A DNA stretch of 55,431 nucleotides, filler included, from Sphacelaria rigidula (Eukaryota): assembly GCA_964200075.2 (NCBI GenBank). It is 6 parts of 6 records of this genome, joined end to end, with 100 filler letters (N's around TTAATTAATTAA, not from the genome) between each part and the next. Parts side by side here need not be neighbours in the genome. Positions count along the whole stretch, not along the records: positions 37,024 to 46,177 come from CAXNAA020009165.1; 5 more parts are not named here. One strand, given 5' to 3'. Positions 9,157 through 46,277 of the stretch are shown one piece after another. Position 1 is the stretch's first letter. Each line of letters starts with the position of its first letter. The notes under the pieces were generated by a model. It was not told where the DNA came from. It saw nothing but the letters and a program-made list of their open reading frames with translations, and searched no databases. The translations under genes and the position numbers were made by a program.

Positions 9157-9256
9157 NNNNNNNNNNNNNNNNNNNNNNNNNNNNNNNNNNNNNNNNNNNN
9201 TTAATTAATTAANNNNNNNNNNNNNNNNNNNNNNNNNNNNNNNNNNNNNNNNNNNN
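9157..9256. other. Assembly spacer (N44-TTAATTAATTAA-N44)
   Basis: 100-bp N run with a central six-frame stop linker; identical spacers occur at 18413, 27669, 36924 and 46178. Confidence 0.98.
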
Positions 9257-18412: not shown

Positions 18413-18512
18413 NNNNNNNNNNNNNNNNNNNNNNNNNNNNNNNNNNNNNNNNNNNNTTAATTAATTAANNNNNNNNNNNNNNNNNNNNNNNNNNNNNNNN
18501 NNNNNNNNNNNN
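18413..18512. other. Assembly spacer
   Basis: Same N44-TTAATTAATTAA-N44 linker. Confidence 0.98.
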
Positions 18513-27668: not shown

Positions 27669-27768
27669 NNNNNNNNNNNNNNNNNNNNNNNNNNNNNNNN
27701 NNNNNNNNNNNNTTAATTAATTAANNNNNNNNNNNNNNNNNNNNNNNNNNNNNNNNNNNNNNNNNNNN
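27669..27768. other. Assembly spacer
   Basis: Same linker. Confidence 0.98.
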
Positions 27769-36923: not shown

Positions 36924-37023
36924 NNNNNNNNNNNNNNNNNNNNNNNNNNNNNNNNNNNNNNNNNNNNTTAATTAATTAANNNNNNNNNNNNNNNNNNNNN
37001 NNNNNNNNNNNNNNNNNNNNNNN
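36924..37023. other. Assembly spacer
   Basis: Same linker. Confidence 0.98.
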
Positions 37024-37580
37024 CAACCCCATCGCTAGCCCTAACCCTAACGATGTTCACATGCCGTTCCGCTCCTCTAAGCACGCGGTCCTCTCACGCA
37101 TTACAATGGGTTCTCGCCGTCCTCTCTGTGGTGGCAGTTACAGGGACACGTTTGTACCAAAAGTATGCACCCGCTTGTCCCCCCCCCAACGACATGTAGG
37201 ACTACCTTGCGTTTATAATGACACGGGAGAACATCATGTAGAGAACATCGTTGCATGAGGACACAACGCGACGAGTAGGTGTCATCGAGATGGACCGGTA
37301 GTGTTACTTTTAGTCAACGGTATTGCTTGGTCCGGCGGTCGTGCGCATTGCCGCCGCGCATTGTGCAGTGGTTGCGGCGATCACTTTATCGACGGTGTAT
37401 GTACTAAAAAACATCCCAACGTGCTCCAGGATTAATCACCACTGCTTGAACAGCATTCTCTACTGGTGGAAGAAGGCCCAATTACATTTGTTCCTCAATG
37501 GCTGTCGCAAAGGGAAATACATGATGTTTCGGCGCACACGCGCCCCCTCTCCGTTCACGGCTCATCCAACACAATCGCAG

Positions 37581-40500
37581 CTGGGTAGGGTCACCCGTGG
37601 ATCCGGAGCACATTCAGCCCAGCTGGATGCTCGTGCCTGTCTCGAACTTGATGGGGGCCGCCGCTGCCAAATCGGTCAACCCGGAGTACTACGAGTGGGG
37701 GTGGTTCCTGTTCGGCACCGGCGTGCTACTCTGGCTGGTCCTTTGGCCGATCACCTTCAGCAAGGTAGATGATGTTGATGATGATGACGATGAGGATATC
37801 AGCAATGATGATGGTGGTGGTGTTGGTAACGACGACGACGACGATGATGATGATAGTTGACACGAATTTCAAAGTCTTGGAGAGTTGTTTGCTGCTCGTG
37901 AACATCCTCTACCGTTGCACTGAACGCCCGGCATCAAAATACGGGAAATATCACACCTGTCTGTGAAAGGATCACTTGGTTGTTTACAGACACCTGCGGG
38001 ACATCGCTTCCCTTCGTGCTTTCTTTCAAGGGATGAGAGTTTCGGGAAATACTTTTGCGCCCGACAGTGAGAGTGAAAGAAGGATTGAGTCGAAACTCTC
38101 GGAGGTTCAGCGTGTGTGTCATCATTCCATCAGTCCTGGACGCCAGTCTACACCAGGTGTGTGTGGACTGCTGTCCAGGACTGATGGAATGATCGCACAC
38201 ACTCTGAACCTTCAAAACCTAACGCTCTGAAGCTCTTTCACCCTGCCTCTAAATCGAAAAAATATTTTCCGAAACTCTCTTCACATACCAAGTGCTACTC
38301 ACCGACGCTGGTTGCAAAACAATGATACATTCACAAACAAGACCCGAAGTCGGACTCAAGCCTCTTCGAAGGCCAATTCGATCCGCGGATCGAGGTTTCA
38401 AGCCCCGATACTCTGTTTGGCGAGCCGCGAGCCAGATCATTTTTTCGATTCTTCGAAATATGACACGCGTGGTATCCAACGGTAGAGTTGCGCGCATTCG
38501 TGTAATTCTCAATGCGTGTGCAAAGAATAAATTTATTATGCAAGTACTTTTCCTCATCCTGCTTTTGTCGTGCGGGTCTTAAAACCATTCGAGCATCTCA
38601 ACAAGGTTTGGCATTCTGGTCTTGCGCAAAGGATATTATTACTGTAACTTATCGATGATGCGGTGTACCTACGTCTTACCATCTGACCTCCGATACGGCC
38701 CAGGCGATCTCTGACCACCACAGCGATATCCGCACTCGGAACTTCTTCGCTATCTGGGTGGCACCTCCAGCGATGGCGATGCTAGCATACCAACACCTGG
38801 AGAGTGTGCTCATCTTTGATTCCCTGCAGCGGGTGCTATATTGTGAGTGATCAGCAGCGGTCTGGCGATTGAATAAAAAAACGTTCCTTTCTTTAGTTTC
38901 TTGGCTTTGTGGGGCTTTTTTTTCAGTCACAATTCCGACCTCTCCCGTTCCTCGAGACGAATCCTTCCTCTAGAGTGGTTGGTCTCGAGAGAGCAACCTA
39001 TCTCCCCCCAGGACACGCCATGCATTCGGTCTTGCGGGTTGAATCGGCAAACCCGCGCCGCGTGAACGCTTGTCAAATAAACCCATCGGAAGTACTTTTA
39101 CTCCCGTCCTAATGCTTTCAACGGCGGATGTTTGATATGTCGGATATGACCCCAACACATGCGGTGTGGATCGAACACGTCTTCTCTGCATCTGAATGTT
39201 GTTTGCTACACCATGTTCAACCGGGGGTGTGCATATTGACACTGATGTTTGCACTAGGAGATGTACCATGGTGCACGAAGAAGTGCGGCACTCGGGCTTA
39301 GCAACTGTGCAGAGCTGGGGGCGACGGGGGGTGGGGAGGGAGGGGCGGGGGGGAGGGGGGGGGATACCCGTGGTATTGCACGCTACAGTCATGGGACCAT
39401 AGACCTCACATCCCTACGAAGCCGGGACAGAGCACGCCGAGTTTTCAAGAGGCCGGCAATCAACCACCAAGCGCGAAGCGCCGTGAAGTGATCGGCGAGT
39501 CGCATTAGGGGTGAGCTGAATCCGGCTAAGATTGCTCGGCCTGAAGCGTACCATGAATCTTGCGCATGGATGGCAACCTGGAAAATATCATTTTTCTGGC
39601 ATCGCCACTTCAAGGGACACCCATGGGTTACCCTATAATGCGTGAGAGGACCGTGTATTCAGGGGGCCGCATTGCAGTTCAAAGCGCCTCAGGATCGACG
39701 TTTTTGAAAACCGATGGGGCCAGTCCCAGCAGGGACCACGCCTCTGACCCTAATCCTAACACCAACCCTAACCCGAACCATAGGGGTGTTGGAATTCCGA
39801 TGCAGTCCTCTACGCACGGAGTCCTCTCACACATTACAATCCTGCCCCACGGATGTCTCACCATTGAAACACAACGTAGTCCAAACACCAGTAGGAGGCG
39901 GCGACAATACCCAGTATCACCAGTATCCGCCAGTGCCATCCTCCAAAATACGCAGTATCTGAAATACCCAGTATCGTCAGGATTTGTCAGTATGAGACGC
40001 TGAAATACCCAGTACCGTCAGGATTTGTCAGTATGAGACGCCGAATTACCCAACATCCGCCAGTATCCGCCAGTACCCGGCCGCAAAAAACCCAGTATCG
40101 CCAATATCGTCAGTACGAGGCGGCGAAATACCCACTATCGCCAGTATCCGCCAATATGAGGCGGCAAATTACCCAGTATCACCAGTATCCGCCAGTACGA
40201 GGCCACTATCGCCAGTATCATCCAGTGTGAAGCGGCGAACTACCCAGTATCACCAGTATCCGCCAGTTTGAGGCGGCGAACTACCCAGTATCACCAGTAT
40301 CCGCCAGTACGAGGCCGCAAATCACCCACTATCGCCAGTATCATCCAGTATGAAGCGGCGAACTACCCAGTATCACCAGTATCCACCAGTATAAGGTGGC
40401 TAGATACCCAGTATCGCCAGTATTATCCAGTATGAGGCGGCAAAAGACGGAGTATCAACAGTGTCCACCAGTATGATAAGAGGAAGTACGGGGGGCGTAC

Positions 40501-43500
40501 GGATACGGGGCAGTACGGAAATCCCTATGGGCCATACTGGTACGGGTCATACGAGGAGCATCTTTGGAACATTCCCTTCCCGCGGAGCTGAAGTTCCCCA
40601 TCCCGCACAATGCAATCTCACGCGACTCATATCATGGTTACCTCAATAAAATTCGCAAGCGAGAACGACGGCGACCTAGTTGCCTAGCTTGCAGAGTGAG
40701 TGGTGTGTTTCAAAGTGCCGGTACCCACCGACGCCAACCCTGGAAAGGGAAAGGGAGGGTTGTGGTGACGCAACCTACGTTTTTGTCAAATCTGCCGTGA
40801 GAATGGTGAATCCCCTTCACGGTTGAATATGCACGTCCCGGAAGTGGTGTACCGCCCGCCCGCTCGCAGCAAAAACTCGAACTCGGTCCCTTATCCTTGT
40901 GATGGAACGTGCTGCTTGTTGCACCGCCCCACAGACCCGGCTCTGTCGATGGCCGCAGCCGTGGCGGTGCTCGCGTGGCCTGTGAATTTCTTCCTGGAGG
41001 GAGGATTTAACATGTCCAACTGGGCGCTTGCATTCCCTCTCGACGCTCTCGCTGCCGCGTCGGTCCTCGCCTACAGTTTGTCTCATCACGAAGCCATCAA
41101 GGTATGGAATAAGAAACAGACACAATCGCGAACTCTTGTTCTCAGGTGCAGAAGCGGAACTAACCAGTGCATAGGAGTGCCTAGAATTTTGCAATGTCGG
41201 CTGGAAGGCTGAGGTTTGTTCTCAAACACCAGACCGTCCACAGATGTGTCTGCGTCCATCTTTCTCACTGCATCTGACGTGTCTCTCCTGCGCTACCATC
41301 GCACATCGCAGTCACCGCTCCCCCCCTGAATGACTTCGTCACTCGGTTCTCTTCCACCTTTCCAATCAACCGAAAGGCGATTTATGTAGTCATCCTGACG
41401 TCGGCGTGCATGGTTAACGCCATCAACCTTCTCGCCACACTGGGTGCGCTGAAAGCGAGGAGCATATTCACTCCGTCGCCGAGATGGTCTCCGCTCATCT
41501 TCGCGGAAATGGTGCACGAGGTGAGTACTGTAGTAGGGCACGCGGTGAACGCCCCGGAGCGATCGTAAACGCAGCCAAATACGCGGGCTATCATGGGGGC
41601 GGAGAGGGTGGGCAGGGGGGATGTGTCATTGGTGCCCTCGGATTGAAGTTGATTTAGTTGGAGTGGTAAGCTATCATTGTTGTTAGAGCTTGGGGATGGG
41701 GTTGTACAGTAGCCACCCGCGGAAAGCCTCGCAACAAGAACTGTTATATGTTGACCACCAGCCGGAAAACCGGCACGGTTCGACGGGTTTTCCCAGCGGT
41801 CGTTGAGACGGGCGTTGGAGGCATTGTAGACGTAACATTAGTTGACAGAACCCGTCCTGCTCCTTTCATAATCAAACTACATCTTAAGCTTTGAGTGCCG
41901 GTACAGCTGCGGGCAGTATGCCCTGCTGTCCCGTACCTGCCCGCGTTTGTCTTGCCCTCCATAAAGAACACAACTTTACTTGATCGCGTTCACATTTGGA
42001 GAGTATGTTACTTCTTATACCTGACCTACAAGATGATTGAGCGCTGACGGTAGTTGCGGGCATGCTTGGACAGGGATAGGGGCTTTGATAACCTTTACGC
42101 GCGACGTACAAAACAGGGGGAAAACGATCGCCATGTTTCACAAACTTTGGCCCTTCACAGGCGTTCCGCGAGGCTGTCCCAAAGCTCGAGAAGTTGGCAG
42201 CGGCCGCACAGCCAGGACTGGCTGACGCGTTCACCGTGCGTGCCCTCGCGACCGCGTGGTCCGCTGTGAGCAAGGTGCACGCGGTGCACACTCGTGCCAA
42301 AGAGACGGTGGTTTTCCCTGAATTGGAAGGATTCTTCCCTGGGCAGGTACGTGATCTTGGTTGAGTCTGTGGATCAATCAGTAAGTAAGATAATGGGTGA
42401 TGCGCAAACGGTGTTGGTTTTGGAAGAAGCTCCAAGCCAGGGCGACGGCATTCCTAACTTGTGGCCGTGGGTAGCCACGGTGTACCGCTTGCGATGTAGA
42501 GCCCACCGGTTAGTTGAAGCTCCTTGACGATGCGTTGTCCCTCCGCCCCAAACAACCTGCAGACGCTGCTGCTGCTGCTGACGAGTAACTCGACTCTATT
42601 ACCGAGCACCTTGTGCTCAGATCGCCCATTGCATGTTCCCGTCAAACACCACTCGCTTGCTTGTGTAGACACACGGAGCGGTCAAGCAGCGTGAGGAGCG
42701 TGGGGAGCTCATGTCGTCTATACAGATGGCAATCAACGCCCTCACGGATGAGAAGGGGGGCAGGTAAGATCTACAGTATCCCATAACCCCTATCGTTATG
42801 AAATCGAAGCGTGAACAGTTGTTACTCAAGTGACCACCTATTACGTAAAGATTTGGTTCGAGCATGACAAGTTGACCATGAAAGCAAAATGTCAGCGCAA
42901 ACAATCCAAACAATGTGACGCCTATTATTCTTCTGCCCCACCTCGCGTTGAAACCAATATTTGTGCTTCTAATACCTTACGTGCGGCTGGAAACTACAGC
43001 GACGGTGAGTACAAGGACGACGCGATCCGTGCTGACCTGCTGGAACAGCTGAAAGCAGACATTCAAGCCTTCAGCGAAGAACTTGTTGAGGGACTGGATG
43101 AGGAGGAGCTGTCGTTTGCCGCTCCTATCGCCCGCAAGGTTAGATAAATCATACTCCATGCGGCGATATGCTGGTGGCCCGTAATGTCGTGGTTTCATTG
43201 CAGATGCGATGTGCAATTCGGCAATGCCTCATCTTACCGTTGGAGTGTTGGGGCTACGGTCGCCGCGGTATCGTGTCAACGGACAACAGTAACGCACACC
43301 CGACCCGGCAAGGGTCGTTACTGCTCACCAGTTTTTTCTATGTTGCTCTTGTCACGATCTTAGAGTAGTAATCTCGTTGCTGTCATTTGATCAACGCATA
43401 TAGCCAGCCAAGCCATAGCCTCGATCCCGCTATAGACTGGAAGAGAACGGCCAGCAAGAGAGTGGTAAGCATTGAAAATGACAAACTCGGATAGATATTG

Positions 43501-45452
43501 CATAGCCGCAATCAAACCCAGGCGAAGTTCCCACCTTGAAAACGGTCTCAGAGTATGGTACAGGGAATACATCGCGAAAAATGTGTGCCATAGGTTCCTT
43601 TATAGTTCTGATTTCTGCATTCCTTGTTGGGAGAACGGTCGGCCATAGACGTATTCGTAGAGGCAAGAGAGAGCGACGGCGTGGCTGAAAGTCGTAGGGT
43701 TCCACACACGTTGTGAGAGGAACGATGACTACCGAGTCCGTCTCGTAGCTCCCCTTAAAATAACGACTGCCCTCGTCTCTTTCCACGCGGGGTGGTTATT
43801 GTCGCCCTTTACGGGAATGTTCGTGCCTTTTTTGTTTGTGGGACTCGCCTGCAGTATCTACCCATCAGCACGACCAAATCGCTGGTGAGGAAGGTCTGGG
43901 ACACCACCTCGAACTCAGACATGTCGGAGCTCCTGGCATGGGTACTCACGACACTGCGCATCCGTGGCCAGAGGGTGAGGACTGCATCTTCGTATCGTGC
44001 CGTCAAAAAATCACTATTGTCAAGCTTGCGAAACAACTTGAATATGAGAAGACCGTTTTCGACGACTGTCGCTTGCATGGGTGTAGCCAAAGCTCACAAA
44101 GTTACGAAGATCAAGAATATTGACAACATAACACAAGGCGTTGCACCTGAGCGTTCATCCGCTTCTACACGGCTAGAGTTAGGGTCAGGGTTCCCCCAAA
44201 GTTCCCATCTAGCCACCAAAACGATGGGCATGCGAACACACGATAACCACCGAAGTATCAGTCAGATAGTTGAATGGTTACGGTGCGTTCTAACAAAAGC
44301 TAGTCACCGGTTCCGATGTCCGCACGATACTTCTTGGCTATTGCATTTACGAGGTGAATAAACACAGAGTAACACGCCTAGAAGATCGGTTTTCACAATC
44401 CCGGTTAAAGTTCAAGCAGTGAGCCCGATATGGCCCTTGAAAGGATTATCCAGGGCCAAACGTTGCGTTGGTTACGAGGGTGACAACCCCGGAGCGAAAG
44501 CGCCGGTGCGATAGCGCTGACTGGTAGCACCATTGTTGTGCGTTCCACGAGGGTACACATTATTTTTTAAAGAGCTATGTTTATTCCAGTCTCTAGGGTC
44601 GACCACAACGGCCTTGCAGTTGTCAGGTTGTAAACAATGACGGGAGTTGACGAAGAATTCGACACGTTTTTCTTCGCGGGCAACAATGCAGCTGATACTG
44701 TGCAGCTATGGTGTATCTCGGAACAAGATCAAGAGGATCGGTCGATGTTAGTGGGACGTTCACTTACACCTCCAACAGATCTCCGGTCCCTGCCCAGCAT
44801 GCTCTTTCCCATCCCCGCAGATTTCTATTACCCAGGGGGAGTCTAGTTTTTATAATGGATTTCTTGTGGGTTTCAAGTAATATTGTAGAGAACGTATATA
44901 GTCCCAAGTGCATACGGCTAGTCGGTACGAACTCGTTATTTTTGCTCGTTGTACAGAACCCTCGTTGCGTGACTGTAGTCGCCAAATGGTCGGACCTTCA
45001 ACCGCCACCCCTCCCAAGAAAAAGGATTCGGTTCGAGAATAGTGGAACGGATCAGAATTCAAACCGCAGTCTTACGGAGCACTGGTTGGTGAAGTCATGG
45101 GAGAGTTTGTGCGAGCGTGACCCTGGCGCCGCCCCGGGCCATGGATATGCAGCGGAACATTCAGAGGGAGGCTGGACCTTGCAATTCCACTGATATGCAA
45201 CTCATATACACCTCTAAACCACGAAATAATGTTTGCCAATAATCCATATCTTTGTTCCTCTGCTCGCACCCGCGTCGCGCAAACAAATAGACGCACTTCC
45301 TGAAAGCATGGGTGTGGGCGATGCCCGAACGTGCGCAGCAGCTAGGGTTGATGGTATATCGGGTCGTCGATGATATCACCTGGGTCGAGCTGGCGCGCGA
45401 TCTCCCCGAAATTGTTCCCCGCGGGCTACCTGGGCACAGCCGTTACTACTAG
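37581..45452 (+). CDS. SLAC1/TehA (TDT family) anion channel with C-terminal hemerythrin-like domain; 5'-partial, 9 exons: 37581-37764, 38704-38842, 40935-41101, 41377-41520, 42161-42346, 42669-42763, 43000-43138, 43855-43974, 45291-45452 (444 aa visible)
   Basis: All 8 introns are GT-AG with compatible phases (0,1,0,0,0,2,0,0), giving one open frame to TAG at 45450-45452. TDT motifs: IQPSWMLVPVSNLMGA, GWFLFGTGVLLWLVL, FAIWVAPPAMA, FNMSNWALAFPLDAL. Then a helical HHE-like region: MVHEAFR...HAVHTRAKETVVFPEL...GLDEEE. Confidence 0.9.
37768..37856 (+). repeat. (GAT/GAC/GGT)n intronic low-complexity repeat
   Basis: Directly follows the exon donor at 37765. Confidence 0.85.
38065..38245 (+). ncRNA. 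Intronic hairpin, candidate pre-miRNA
   Basis: Arms of about 50 bp (38101-38153 and 38161-38213) with a perfect 21-bp core ATCATTCCATCAGTCCTGGAC / GTCCAGGACTGATGGAATGAT and a looser basal stem (GTGAAAGA / TCTTTCAC). The hairpin is certain; the miRNA identity is inference. Confidence 0.45.
39893..40475 (+). repeat. Intronic minisatellite, about 14 units of about 41 bp (TACCCAGTATCACCAGTATCCGCCAGTATGAGGCGGCGAAC)
   Basis: Units are built from three CCAGTAT sub-repeats; read directly. Confidence 0.93.
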
Positions 45453-46177
45453 AGAGGCACGGAGCCGATGGCGCGTCGGAGCGTTTCGTTCCGTGTCACG
45501 CCGTTCCTTTTGGATTTTGAAATGTAGTATTGTTTTAGGTATTTCGATGCCTCTCAGCGTAGTTCATGGTGTTGTATATATTTTTGTTCGGAATATCCCA
45601 GAAGGTGACCAAATGTGGAAAGGTAGGATATTTTCACGCGTTTTTTGTGCTACGTTTTTGAAAAAGAGCGGATATATGTCGGAAGCCTCGTGAAAGTAGC
45701 ACCGAGAACCACGACGAGGGGTTACGGGGACGGGGGCAGGGGGGTTCCCAACATGGTACGTCCGCCTTAACAGGTCTGCAACTACCGATTGCTTCGACAA
45801 CCATCGTTTTAAGATGAGTTCATAGTCGCGACTAAGGTAGTTTTTGTTTAAATGCGAGTTTTCGGCTGGAATGCTTGGAATGTAGTAAAATATTTTTTTG
45901 TAACTTGTGGCATGTTCGAGCTTGTTTGGAATACTACGTTGTGTACATTTTTTTATCCACCCTCTGTGGTACCACGACATACCTCCGGGCATCTAATGGA
46001 TAAGCTCAATGCGAGTTGTGTATAACCTACGGTGGCATGGAGTGTTCTGGGTTGTAGTGCCGGTGTAAGTAATGTTGAAAATTACTCACACAGCTTATAA
46101 TGTGGCTGTTTTCACAGGCACCGTAGGTAAGGTACCGTACCGAGCGTACCCCCGGTATTTACCGGGGTATCCCATAC

Positions 46178-46277
46178 NNNNNNNNNNNNNNNNNNNNNNN
46201 NNNNNNNNNNNNNNNNNNNNNTTAATTAATTAANNNNNNNNNNNNNNNNNNNNNNNNNNNNNNNNNNNNNNNNNNNN
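46178..46277. other. Assembly spacer
   Basis: Same linker. Confidence 0.98.

What the first reader, a model, noticed from the sequence alone, without database searches (positions are those of the whole stretch)
37581..45452. SLAC1/TehA-type anion channel fused to a hemerythrin-like domain
Seen: nine exons splice in frame into one protein whose membrane half carries TDT-family motifs, including WALAFP, followed without a stop by a soluble helical domain with hemerythrin/HHE spacing and a Trp-rich C-terminal extension (AWVWAMPERAQQLG...WVELARDLPEI). Established: the Phe of the W-x-x-x-F-P motif is the pore gate in TehA and plant SLAC1; plant SLAC1 is controlled through kinase-phosphorylated tails; hemerythrin domains sense O2, NO or Fe. 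Inference: a channel with a built-in cytosolic sensor or regulatory module. I know of no functional characterisation of this architecture, although it may exist as uncharacterised database entries. The ORF track misses it because it is fragmented into short exons.
Basis: partly seen in the sequence, partly recalled or inferred. Interest (0 to 1): 0.85.

Follow-up and report, generated by a model that had tools for sequence, protein, structure and literature searches.

The report
Anion channel with degenerate hemerythrin tail
This is the expressed 3' half of a brown-alga gene for a SLAC1/TehA-type anion channel fused to an iron-sensor-like (hemerythrin) tail; the fusion belongs to a widespread, untested algal protein family, but this copy has lost half of its iron-binding residues.

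Summary
Nine GT-AG exons (37581-45452, + strand) splice in frame into 444 residues. These align without gaps to three full-length annotated homologues. Intron-less contigs in 4 of 4 laid runs join the exons, including 41520/42161. The window is six separate ~9.15-kb contigs. This one is a Sphacelaria rigidula contig that cuts off the gene's 5' half.

The full protein family is Glutaredoxin - DUF4395 - SLAC1/TDT channel - hemerythrin module, about 900-1050 aa. It occurs in brown, green and red algae and other protists. It sits in databases under automatic names; I found no functional study. The gate Phe of TehA (F262) aligns with the Phe of WALAFP.

The tail is a hemerythrin homologue. The family profile hits YtfE at 2e-6 and FBXL5 at 6e-5. 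The predicted four-helix bundle is closest to HHE proteins. The "Trp-rich extension" is part of a BRUTUS/HRZ-type hemerythrin unit.

This copy keeps only 3 of 6 di-iron ligands (H,H,K,R,G,E). That includes Lys in place of a bridging Glu, whereas 107 of 126 relatives keep all six. A built-in O2/NO/Fe sensor is therefore unlikely here; a metal-free regulatory bundle is the better reading.

The parts
37581..37764 (+). Exon 1 as seen here. It is an internal exon; upstream exons lie off the contig. It encodes TDT helices, Pfam SLAC1 profile positions 131-193.
   Evidence: (36.1 bits, cut-off 27.9)
38704..38842 (+). Exon 2, channel domain (AISDHHSD..VAPPAMAMLAY..). It ends in phase 1.
   Evidence: (joint 38842->40935 in 4 of 4 runs)
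40935..41101 (+). Exon 3, channel domain. W-A-L-A-F-P is at 41021-41038. The Phe codon at 41033-41035 is the equivalent of the HiTehA F262 / AtSLAC1 F450 gate.
   Evidence: (SLAC1 profile positions 264-300)
41377..41520 (+). Exon 4. It encodes the last transmembrane helix, the conserved Pro-rich linker (FTPSPRWSPL) and the start of bundle helix 1. The first, invariant ligand His (MVHE) has its codon at 41515-41517.
42161..42346 (+). Exon 5, hemerythrin-like bundle helices 1-2. In VHTRAKETVVFP the His is kept, while the bridging Glu position is Lys.
   Evidence: PF01814, 17.7 bits; joint 41520->42161
42669..42763 (+). Exon 6, bundle helix 3. The ligand His position is Arg (KQREERG).
43000..43138 (+). 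Exon 7, bundle helix 4. The ligand His position is Gly (VEGLDEEE); the second bridging Glu is kept.
43855..43974 (+). Exon 8, first helices of the BTS/HRZ-type extension of the hemerythrin unit.
45291..45452 (+). Exon 9. It holds the most conserved part of the module (FLKAWVWAMPERAQQLG..PEIVPRGLPGHSRYY) and the TAG stop at 45450-45452.
45453..46137 (+). 3' untranslated region covered by the spliced contigs.
   Evidence: table 8: pieces 45290-46137 in runs X1 and X2

Best explanation
The region is the expressed 3' half of a gene of the brown alga Sphacelaria rigidula. The gene belongs to a conserved eukaryotic-algal family with the order dithiol glutaredoxin - DUF4395 membrane domain (with an F-C-x-G-C motif) - SLAC1/TehA (TDT) ten-helix anion pore - BRUTUS/HRZ-type hemerythrin module.

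Shown here: the exon structure, the splicing, family membership, and conservation of the pore-blocking Phe. Also shown: the tail is a hemerythrin homologue whose di-iron site is eroded to H,H,K,R,G,E from the canonical H,H,E,H,H,E.

Inferred: the protein forms a SLAC1/TehA-like trimeric anion pore gated at the WALAFP Phe. The C-terminal helical module sits in the cytosol, tethered to the last transmembrane helix by a short, conserved Pro-rich linker, and acts as the regulatory or gating domain. In canonical family members the module would bind two irons, as in BTS, FBXL5 and YtfE, and couple iron, O2 or redox state to the pore. In this paralogue lineage (window, P0004, P0005, Ascophyllum P0003) Lys/Arg replace metal ligands, probably pairing with the remaining Glu. 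The bundle is then a metal-free scaffold that is still under selection. It may be a constitutively set regulatory domain, or a modulatory subunit, rather than a sensor.
For: Gene model and splicing. Source and truncation: (P0001 is 100% identical and sits on a 9154-bp contig).

Channel. Pfam SLAC1 hits exons 1 and 3 and scores 1e-32 to 4e-35 on homologues. PDB search with paralogue P0005 gives SLAH1 at 1.7e-18 and HiTehA at 2.9e-16. TehA's WAFSFPL aligns with WAFAFPL, and by my count along the printed alignment the second Phe is residue 262. F262/F450 are the pore-blocking residues according to a Discussion passage of PMC10645844.

Hemerythrin homology. Pfam PF01814 scores above its cut-off in Ascophyllum P0003 (33.8 bits) and in 5 of the 7 relatives scanned. 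A sixth scores 25.0, just under the 25.3 cut-off, and P0014 has no hit. The family profile hits YtfE at 2.4e-6, FBXL5 at 6e-5 and NMB1532 at 8.5e-4. AF2 of the P0005 module (pLDDT 85.7) gives four long helices plus short ones. The best structural matches are 3cax at Z 14.9 and 2p0n at Z 13.7.

BTS/HRZ relation. Multi-hemerythrin CHY-RING E3 ligases are the best hits outside the family. Their alignment runs through the extension.

Ligands. The YtfE set is H84, H129, E133, H160, H204, E208 (PMC9052748 Introduction passage), mapped through the alignment. The window keeps 3 of 6, and 107 of 126 relatives keep 6 of 6. In BTSL2, E-to-A at the central Glu removes that site's iron, and the BTSL2 H2 subdomain is a natural iron-free hemerythrin fold (PMC12022348 section 8).

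Still constrained. Between Sphacelaria and Ascophyllum the bundle is 59-65% identical within the degenerate lineage. Canonical copies show 60-64% between brown algae. The extension is 75-89% identical. The degenerate lineage is a supported clade (100*) inside the brown-algal clade.
Against: No current, metal content, localisation or oligomer state has been measured for any family member. The structure models are of paralogue P0005, which is 82% identical overall and 70% identical in the bundle, not of the window's own product; the spliced product could not be handed to the tools. The window's own annotated fragment P0001 scores 23.2 bits for PF01814, just under the 25.3 cut-off. Foldseek gave no PDB match at E<=1e-3. 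In the VIA search, hemerythrins are mixed with generic and designed four-helix bundles. H,H,E remain, so a single metal ion or another ligand cannot be excluded. Algal TDT proteins were placed nearer the Mae1 malate permease than SLAC1 by Dreyer et al. 2012 (PMC3509319 passages), so 'channel' rather than 'carrier' is not settled. Whether this gene's missing 5' half carries DUF4395 and Grx is unknown.
Confidence: 0.6

Rival explanations
1. One reading: the tail is a working di-iron hemerythrin that senses O2, NO or Fe and gates the channel.
For: The domain is a hemerythrin homologue. Two His and one Glu ligand remain. Canonical relatives keep all six ligands. BTS and FBXL5-type domains are iron/O2 sensors (abstract of PMC12022348).
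Against: Three of six ligands are replaced by K, R and G. One of them is a bridging Glu whose E-to-A change removes the iron of that site in BTSL2. The sister paralogues P0004 and P0005 keep only 2 of 6.
Confidence: 0.1
2. The tail is a decaying relic. After duplication the sensor became useless, and the module persists only as neutral baggage on a working channel.
For: Ligands have been lost. Loss is recurrent in the family: at least 6-8 changes on the tree.
Against: The degenerate bundle is as conserved between two brown-algal orders (59-65%) as canonical bundles are (60-64%). The extension is 75-89% identical. The reading frame is intact through six exons and is spliced and expressed. Lys recurs at the bridging-Glu position in 13 of the 19 degenerate sequences, which looks like compensation rather than drift.
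Confidence: 0.12
3. The membrane half is not a gated channel but a Mae1/Ssu1/TehA-like carrier for an oxyanion or dicarboxylate (malate, sulfite, tellurite/selenite, nitrite). The redox domains act on or sense the substrate.
For: Dreyer et al. 2012 place algal TDTs nearer Mae1 (PMC3509319 passages). Database names include 'malate transporter' and 'tellurite resistance'. The Ectocarpus orthologue was reported as copper-induced (PMC4108028 passage). Earlier scan notes link prokaryotic TDT genes to nitrate reductase operons and to thiol-redox clusters (unchecked leads).
Against: The best solved matches are SLAH1 and TehA with the gate Phe conserved. No transport data exist either way.
Confidence: 0.2
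4. Gene-model artefact: two neighbouring genes (a channel and a hemerythrin protein) wrongly joined.
For: The NCBI annotation of this contig holds only a 120-aa partial protein covering exons 5-7 (P0001).
Against: Spliced contigs in 4 of 4 runs join 41520 to 42161 and all the other exons. In my domain scan of the stored sequences the fusion occurs as one protein in 110 relatives (111 counting the window's own product), from brown, green and red algae. One of the relatives found is an intron-free 869-aa ORF (L001).
Confidence: 0.01

Closest known systems
Haemophilus influenzae TehA and plant S-type anion channels SLAC1/SLAH1/SLAH3 (Pfam PF03595; PDB 3m71, 7wnq, 7en0, 9m7s)
   Same: Homologous membrane domain: E 1.7e-18 to SLAH1 and 2.9e-16 to TehA for paralogue P0005. 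The W-x-x-x-F-P motif is shared, with the pore-blocking Phe in register.
   Different: [quoted passage not shown] Here the C-terminus is a roughly 250-residue hemerythrin-type helical module, and in full-length relatives the N-terminus is Grx plus DUF4395. No currents have been measured.
Hemerythrin domains of the plant/algal iron sensors BRUTUS/BTSL/HRZ, and of mammalian FBXL5
   Same: These are the best hits outside the family for the module profile. The alignment covers the four-helix bundle and the following helices, and in two proteins reaches the W.WAMPE and PEI regions. The H-HxxxE-H-HxxxE ligand pattern is present in canonical family members. FBXL5 scores E 6e-5 by sequence and Z 11.1 by structure.
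   Different: In BTS/HRZ the domains are attached to a CHY-RING E3 ligase; here a single unit is attached to a membrane pore. The window's copy lacks 3 of 6 ligands, like the iron-free H2 subdomain of BTSL2.
E. coli YtfE/RIC di-iron protein (PDB 5fnn)
   Same: Best solved-structure sequence match of the family profile, at 2.4e-6. Its six ligands map one-to-one onto the canonical family columns.
   Different: YtfE is a soluble enzyme with an extra N-terminal domain. The window's copy has K, R and G at E133, H160 and H204.
Ectocarpus siliculosus Esi0050_0061, 'Glutaredoxin/malate transporter fusion protein' (P0012), and its algal orthologues
   Same: Same family and same domain order. The C-terminal module is 51% identical to Ascophyllum P0003's. 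It was reported as up-regulated by copper stress (PMC4108028 passage).
   Different: P0012 is a canonical copy with 6 of 6 ligands and a CPFC glutaredoxin. The window's gene belongs to a separate brown-algal paralogue lineage with eroded ligands.

Membership tests
SLAC1/TehA (TDT) family, Pfam PF03595 | Match to the family HMM at or above the curated cut-off | tested here: met
   Exon 1 alone scores 36.1 bits against a cut-off of 27.9, and exon 3 scores 18.1 bits. Collinear paralogues score 114-122 bits over profile positions 2-331.
SLAC1/TehA (TDT) family, Pfam PF03595 | Pore-blocking Phe (HiTehA F262 / AtSLAC1 F450) in the W-x-x-x-F-P context | tested here: met
   TehA WAFSFPL aligns with paralogue WAFAFPL. 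The window has WALAFPL at the same gap-free position. The residue's role comes from a PMC10645844 passage.
SLAC1/TehA (TDT) family, Pfam PF03595 | Complete ten-helix domain | tested here: not met
   Only profile positions from about 131 to the end are encoded on this contig. The 5' half lies beyond the contig end. This is an assembly limit, not evidence that the gene lacks it.
SLAC1/TehA (TDT) family, Pfam PF03595 | Trimeric assembly and anion conductance | not testable with these tools
   Needs biochemistry or electrophysiology.
Hemerythrin/HHE cation-binding domain, Pfam PF01814 | Match to the family HMM at or above the curated cut-off | tested here: inconclusive
   The window's own pieces score below the 25.3 cut-off: exon 5 scores 17.7 bits and P0001 (exons 5-7) scores 23.2 bits. 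The whole spliced module could not be submitted. Lineage-mate P0003 scores 33.8 bits and canonical relatives score 36.6-46.2 bits.
Hemerythrin/HHE cation-binding domain, Pfam PF01814 | Four-helix up-down bundle | tested here: met
   The AF2 model of paralogue P0005's module has helices 11-33, 40-76, 82-110 and 115-152, with pLDDT 85.7. VIA matches are 3cax at Z 14.9 and 2p0n at Z 13.7. This was tested on a paralogue 70% identical in this part.
Hemerythrin/HHE cation-binding domain, Pfam PF01814 | Di-iron ligand set H-HxxxE-H-HxxxE | tested here: not met
   The window has H,H,K,R,G,E, which is 3 of 6. 107 of 126 relatives have HHEHHE. Ligand identity comes from YtfE through the alignment.
Algal Grx-DUF4395-SLAC1-hemerythrin family (unnamed; e.g. 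Esi0050_0061) | Collinear SLAC1 domain, Pro-rich linker, hemerythrin bundle and conserved C-terminal extension ending ..IPRGLPG..RY[FY] | tested here: met
   Gap-free alignment. All invariant columns of the module are present in the window's product. The tree places it inside the brown-algal clade with 100* support.
Algal Grx-DUF4395-SLAC1-hemerythrin family (unnamed; e.g. Esi0050_0061) | N-terminal glutaredoxin and DUF4395 domains | not testable with these tools
   The 5' part of the gene is not on the contig. The spliced contigs reach only 386 nt further upstream, and no whole genome is held.

The most novel reading that the evidence does not exclude
The family is an iron/redox-gated anion channel in which a BRUTUS-type di-iron hemerythrin, together with a dithiol glutaredoxin and a CxxC membrane domain, directly controls a SLAC1-type pore. 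That would be a channel-level iron or oxidant sensor spread across eukaryotic algae. The window's lineage would be a naturally 'ligand-dead' paralogue whose Lys/Arg-Glu pairs lock the sensor in one state. It could co-assemble with canonical paralogues of the same alga into mixed trimers that tune sensitivity. Both kinds coexist in Ascophyllum (P0003 and P0011). The silent subunit SLAH1, which modulates SLAH3 in plants, would be the analogue; those two proteins are solved together in PDB 9m7s, and SLAH1's functional role is my recollection.
Probability: 0.15. Interest if true: 0.8.

Novelty: new variant of a known kind. Interest (0 to 1): 0.5.

Why it matters
S-type anion channels are known as kinase-controlled effectors in land plants and as a structural model (TehA) in bacteria. 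How algae use their many TDT proteins is open; Dreyer et al. 2012 noted the diversity without mentioning these fusions (0 occurrences of hemerythrin or glutaredoxin).

This family attaches to the pore the same kind of hemerythrin unit that plants use as their iron sensor (BTS/HRZ), plus a dithiol glutaredoxin. That gives a directly testable hypothesis of metal- or redox-gated anion flux in ecologically dominant algae. The Ectocarpus orthologue was reported as copper-responsive.

The window's lineage offers a natural control: the same scaffold with the metal site replaced.

For annotation, the NCBI model of this contig covers only 120 residues of a product at least 444 residues long.

Tried and rejected
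- Whole-genome look-up: no genome is held for this window, so the 5' half could not be fetched.
- Sequencing runs: no RNA holder listed. X1-X4 are only guessed to be RNA. I rely on their contigs lacking the introns. Stretches without cover are not used as evidence.
- Foldseek against PDB with the module model: 0 matches at E<=1e-3. The only sensible row was 3cax (probability 0.99, TMq 0.51).
- ESM Atlas with P0008 residues 690-938: best scores 0.83-0.84 to hemerythrin clusters, below the 0.9 level, so a lead only.
- Co-loss idea (glutaredoxin active site lost together with the iron ligands): the counts were 5, 19, 4 and 40 for the four combinations. That is a weak association, confounded by truncated gene models, and I dropped it.
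- Prokaryote genome scan with the module: 33 pattern matches but only 1 confirmed locus. L001 is a 3459-bp contig of a Myxococcales MAG carrying an intron-free 869-aa family member. There is no support for a bacterial home of the module, though the scan used one peptide pattern only.
- Short hits (about 240-300 aa) as free-standing modules: cluster 5 holds such short members on 1-2 kb contigs together with 971-aa members. These are therefore most likely fragments, and I make no claim of a stand-alone form.
- Rfam on the contig: 0 matches. Minus-strand and intronic stop-to-stop frames of at least 110 aa: 19 in all, the longest outside exons 189 aa. None was followed up.
- Earlier scan notes: 0 hits for all four words and 0 by sequence.
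- Literature. 'SLAC1'+'hemerythrin' gave 2 papers, unrelated by title and abstract start. 'DUF4395' gave 2 unrelated papers. 'hemerythrin'+'TehA' gave 1 unrelated paper. 'glutaredoxin'+'SLAC1'+'algae' gave 5 papers, none on this protein by title and abstract start. These were seen as search listings only. Supplements, such as the Ectocarpus expression tables, were not available.
- Complex prediction: not used. A trimer of channel domains would pass by likeness to solved TehA/SLAC1 and would not change my odds.

Full report
WHAT THE WINDOW IS. The 55,431-base window is not one stretch of genome. It is six pieces of 9154-9156 bases joined by N44-TTAATTAATTAA-N44 spacers. The finding lies in piece 5 (37024-46177). 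A search with exon 5 returned a 120-aa NCBI partial protein of Sphacelaria rigidula, 100% identical, on a 9154-bp contig (P0001). The piece is therefore a whole small contig of a fragmented brown-alga assembly. No whole genome is held for it.

THE OBSERVATION. I rebuilt the exon model from the sequence. Nine + strand exons have AG acceptors and GT donors throughout, and the phases fit. Their coordinates are 37581-37764, 38704-38842, 40935-41101, 41377-41520, 42161-42346, 42669-42763, 43000-43138, 43855-43974 and 45291-45452.
- The 444-aa product aligns without gaps to three independently annotated full-length proteins: P0005 (364/444 identical), P0004 (358/444) and Ascophyllum P0003 (312/444). 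The only gap is a 5-residue insert in P0004's model at the exon 4/5 junction.
- tblastn of P0004 and P0008 against the whole window finds exactly these nine exons and nothing in the other five pieces.
- I laid the contigs of four runs (X1-X4, one study, kind only guessed as RNA) on the contig. All four give contigs that skip seven introns at GT..AG, including 41520->42161. Record coordinates also put exon 1 beside exon 2. The contigs carry a 3' UTR to 46137.
- Four other runs hold 54-98% of the sampled words, so they hold much or nearly all of the stretch. The spliced form is therefore a processed transcript of this locus.
- Position 37581 is an internal acceptor. The 2410-nt contig continues 386 nt upstream into sequence absent from the genomic contig; the printed 30 letters of it read ..LTMLTWFSIA, as in the homologues.

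THE MEMBRANE HALF.
- Pfam SLAC1 (PF03595) matches exon 1 at 36.1 bits against a cut-off of 27.9, over profile positions 131-193. It matches exon 3 at 18.1 bits over positions 264-300. The full-length homologues match positions 2-331 at 1e-32 to 4e-35.
- Against solved structures, paralogue P0005 hits Arabidopsis SLAH1 (1.7e-18), H. influenzae TehA (2.9e-16), SLAH3 and SLAC1, giving 16 distinct sequences at E<=0.01.
- In the printed alignment TehA's WAFSFPL lies on WAFAFPL. Counting along the chain, the second Phe is residue 262. F262 in TehA and F450 in AtSLAC1 are the pore-blocking residues (PMC10645844, Discussion passage).
- The window has WALAFPL at the same gap-free position, with the Phe codon at 41033-41035. 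This Phe is at least 90% conserved among 18 family members.

THE TAIL.
- Exon 5 alone gives a weak Pfam Hemerythrin match (17.7 bits). The window's own annotated fragment P0001 gives 23.2 bits, just under the 25.3 cut-off.
- Relatives clear the cut-off. P0003 scores 33.8 bits, and five of the seven scanned score 36.6-46.2 bits. One scores 25.0, and P0014 has no hit.
- A profile of 16 C-terminal modules (A2) hits E. coli YtfE (2.4e-6), the FBXL5 hemerythrin domain (6e-5), NMB1532 (8.5e-4) and ScdA (0.007) among solved structures.
- AlphaFold2 of the module of paralogue P0005 (pLDDT 85.7, pTM 0.84) gives four long helices followed by six short ones. The full-length P0005 model (pLDDT 81.3) shows the same tail after the last membrane helix.
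- Foldseek found nothing at E<=1e-3.
- The Foldseek-independent VIA search ranks 3cax first (Z 14.9, 172 residues aligned) and 2p0n, which is NMB1532, second (Z 13.7). An HHE protein (6q09) scores 11.9, FBXL5 scores 11.1 and DcrH-Hr scores 11.0. These sit among many generic and designed bundles. The tool warns that Z below about 13 for helical bundles can be generic.
The fold evidence alone shows a four-helix bundle. The hemerythrin assignment rests on sequence profiles and fold together.

THE EXTENSION. A profile search of 1.84 billion representatives gave 1399 hits at E<=1e-3 and 119 at E<=1e-30. Besides family members, the list holds proteins of 1100-1500 aa with three or four matched stretches. 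Pfam shows that the four I tested are BRUTUS/HRZ-type E3 ligases, with hemerythrin repeats plus zf-CHY, RING and zinc ribbon. Their alignment to the module runs beyond the bundle, to profile positions 187-197. In P0098 and P0111 it reaches 230-233, covering the W.WAMPE and PEI regions. The 'Trp-rich extension' is therefore part of a BTS/HRZ-type hemerythrin unit, not a new appendage. It is also the best-conserved part of the whole protein, at 75-89% identity among brown algae.

THE METAL SITE.
- YtfE's ligands are H84, H129, E133, H160, H204 and E208 (PMC9052748, Introduction passage). Through the alignment they map to single columns of the family.
- All 13 canonical sequences in my first set of 19 keep all six ligands. 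The window has H,H,K,R,G,E (3 of 6). P0004 and P0005 have 2 of 6, P0003 has 3 of 6, P0013 has 4 of 6 and P0014 has 3 of 6.
- Over all stored relatives with one module covering these columns, 107 of 126 are HHEHHE and 19 are degenerate. This set includes near-identical cluster members and the window. Lys stands at the first bridging-Glu position in 13 of the 19.
- For BTSL2, changing the central Glu of the H-HxxxE-H-HxxxE motif to Ala removed the iron of that site, and BTSL2's H2 subdomain naturally lacks a di-iron centre (PMC12022348, section 8).
By that precedent the window's module should not hold a di-iron centre.

THE FAMILY.
- Searching with the module of P0003 among proteins of 476-1516 aa gave 18 proteins. 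They come from brown algae (Ectocarpus, Scytosiphon, Ascophyllum, Sphacelaria, Choristocarpus), green algae (Chlamydomonas sp. UWO241, Pyramimonas) and unnamed sources. Most carry PF00462, PF14340, PF03595 and PF01814. My own scans confirmed these domains.
- The order is Grx - DUF4395 - SLAC1 - hemerythrin.
- Names retrieved for ten representatives add the red alga Porphyridium ('SLAH3'), a MMETSP transcriptome, marine metagenome proteins ('tellurite resistance protein', 'glutaredoxin 3') and a EukProt entry Clim_evm1s74.
- I built domain profiles from alignment A1 and scanned 198 sequences (197 stored plus the window's product). 57 have all four domains, 20 start at DUF4395, 34 start in SLAC1 (this includes the window's own product), 66 are module-only pieces and 18 are multi-module. 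Many of the shorter ones are fragments; cluster 5 is an example.
- The glutaredoxin is of the dithiol C-P-[FY]-C kind, and DUF4395 carries F-C-x-G-C.
[quoted passage not shown] I found no functional study of the family. Dreyer et al. 2012 on algal TDTs do not mention hemerythrin or glutaredoxin.

WHERE THE WINDOW'S GENE SITS. A FastTree of 91 rows was built from the start of the SLAC1 domain to the C-terminus. Rows lacking one SLAC1 hit, or lacking one complete module hit, were left out of the 198. Support is SH-like only.
- The window groups with P0004 and P0005 (99*), then with Ascophyllum P0003 (100*). This sits inside a 12-row brown-algal clade (100*) that also holds six canonical copies.
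- Ligand loss needs at least 8 changes on the tree, 6 of them forced by starred branches.
- The duplication is therefore older than the split of Sphacelariales and Fucales. Ascophyllum has both kinds (P0003 and P0011).
- The eroded bundle is not freer to vary. It is 59-65% identical between the two orders, against 60-64% for canonical copies between brown algae.

HOW IT MOST LIKELY WORKS. Shown: the gene structure, the expression as one spliced message, the TDT pore half with its gate Phe, the BTS-type hemerythrin homology of the whole tail, and the loss of half of the metal ligands. Inferred from the TehA/SLAC1 family: a trimer of ten-helix pores with both ends in the cytosol.
- The tail would hang under the pore on a short conserved linker (FTPxxKWSPL, with two invariant prolines).
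- I read the tail as the regulatory domain of the pore. In canonical members it is probably a di-iron, iron/O2/redox-responsive switch, acting with the dithiol glutaredoxin and the CxxC membrane domain.
- In this lineage the metal has been replaced by charged side chains. The bundle is a fixed scaffold that keeps the conserved extension in place, giving either a constitutively set regulator or a modulatory subunit.
- Which anion moves, and whether it moves by channel or carrier, is open.
Earlier notes of this scan link prokaryotic TDT genes to nitrate reductase operons (once with a hemerythrin) and to thiol-redox clusters. These are untested leads that fit the domain combination seen here.

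LIMITS.
- The spliced product could not be given to the structure and family tools. Models and PDB alignments are of paralogue P0005 (82% identical overall) or of family profiles.
- The tree is a fast one.
- Counts include fragments and near-copies.
- No supplement of any paper was seen.

VERDICT. The gene is a truncated, under-annotated member of a database-known but uncharacterised algal family. Relative to characterised S-type channels it is a new variant. Interest is moderate.

Noticed in passing
window 9157-9256, 18413-18512, 27669-27768, 36924-37023, 46178-46277: The window is six separate contigs of 9154-9156 bases joined by N44-TTAATTAATTAA-N44 spacers. Neighbouring pieces are not genomic neighbours.
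   Followed up: yes
window 37024-37329, 39166-39777, 45898-46177: The two contig ends and part of intron 2 attract very high summed contig depth in the four runs, in the hundreds to thousands against tens on the exons. Many loose ends occur there too. These are expressed dispersed repeats, which probably explain why the assembly broke here. Telomere-like CCCTAA-type runs lie at about 37040 and about 39750.
   Followed up: partly
window 39961-40476 (intron 2): Tandem array of a 41-nt unit, about 12.9 copies at 75% match.
   Followed up: partly
window 38032-38282 (intron 1): Nested inverted repeats: 51-nt arms at 88% complementarity, 7 nt apart, inside 49-nt arms. This forms a roughly 250-bp palindromic, MITE-like element.
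   Followed up: no
window 37765-37860: A GAT/GAC-rich microsatellite starts right at the exon 1 donor. It stays open in the exon's frame (..FSKVDDVDDDDDEDISNDD..), so intron retention would add an acidic tail. The read-laying tool also skipped this repeat.
   Followed up: no
window 42161-43060 (P0001): The public annotation of this contig holds only a 120-aa partial protein covering exons 5-7, out of a product at least 444 aa long.
   Followed up: yes
L001 581-3190: An intron-free 869-aa family member lies on a 3459-bp contig binned into a Myxococcales MAG. It has a truncated Grx, DUF4395, SLAC1 and a degenerate hemerythrin module. It may be eukaryote-derived contamination or a transfer. It was the only confirmed hit of the motif scan over prokaryote genomes.
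   Followed up: partly
family-wide (P0003-P0197): Loss of di-iron ligands recurs in the family, with at least 6-8 changes on the tree. It usually puts Lys at the first bridging-Glu position (13 of 19 degenerate sequences), which suggests a repeated route to a metal-free bundle.
   Followed up: partly
window 38787: Run X4's contig reads G where the window has A, in exon 2. It is one contig at depth 34.7, and is probably an allele or strain difference.
   Followed up: no
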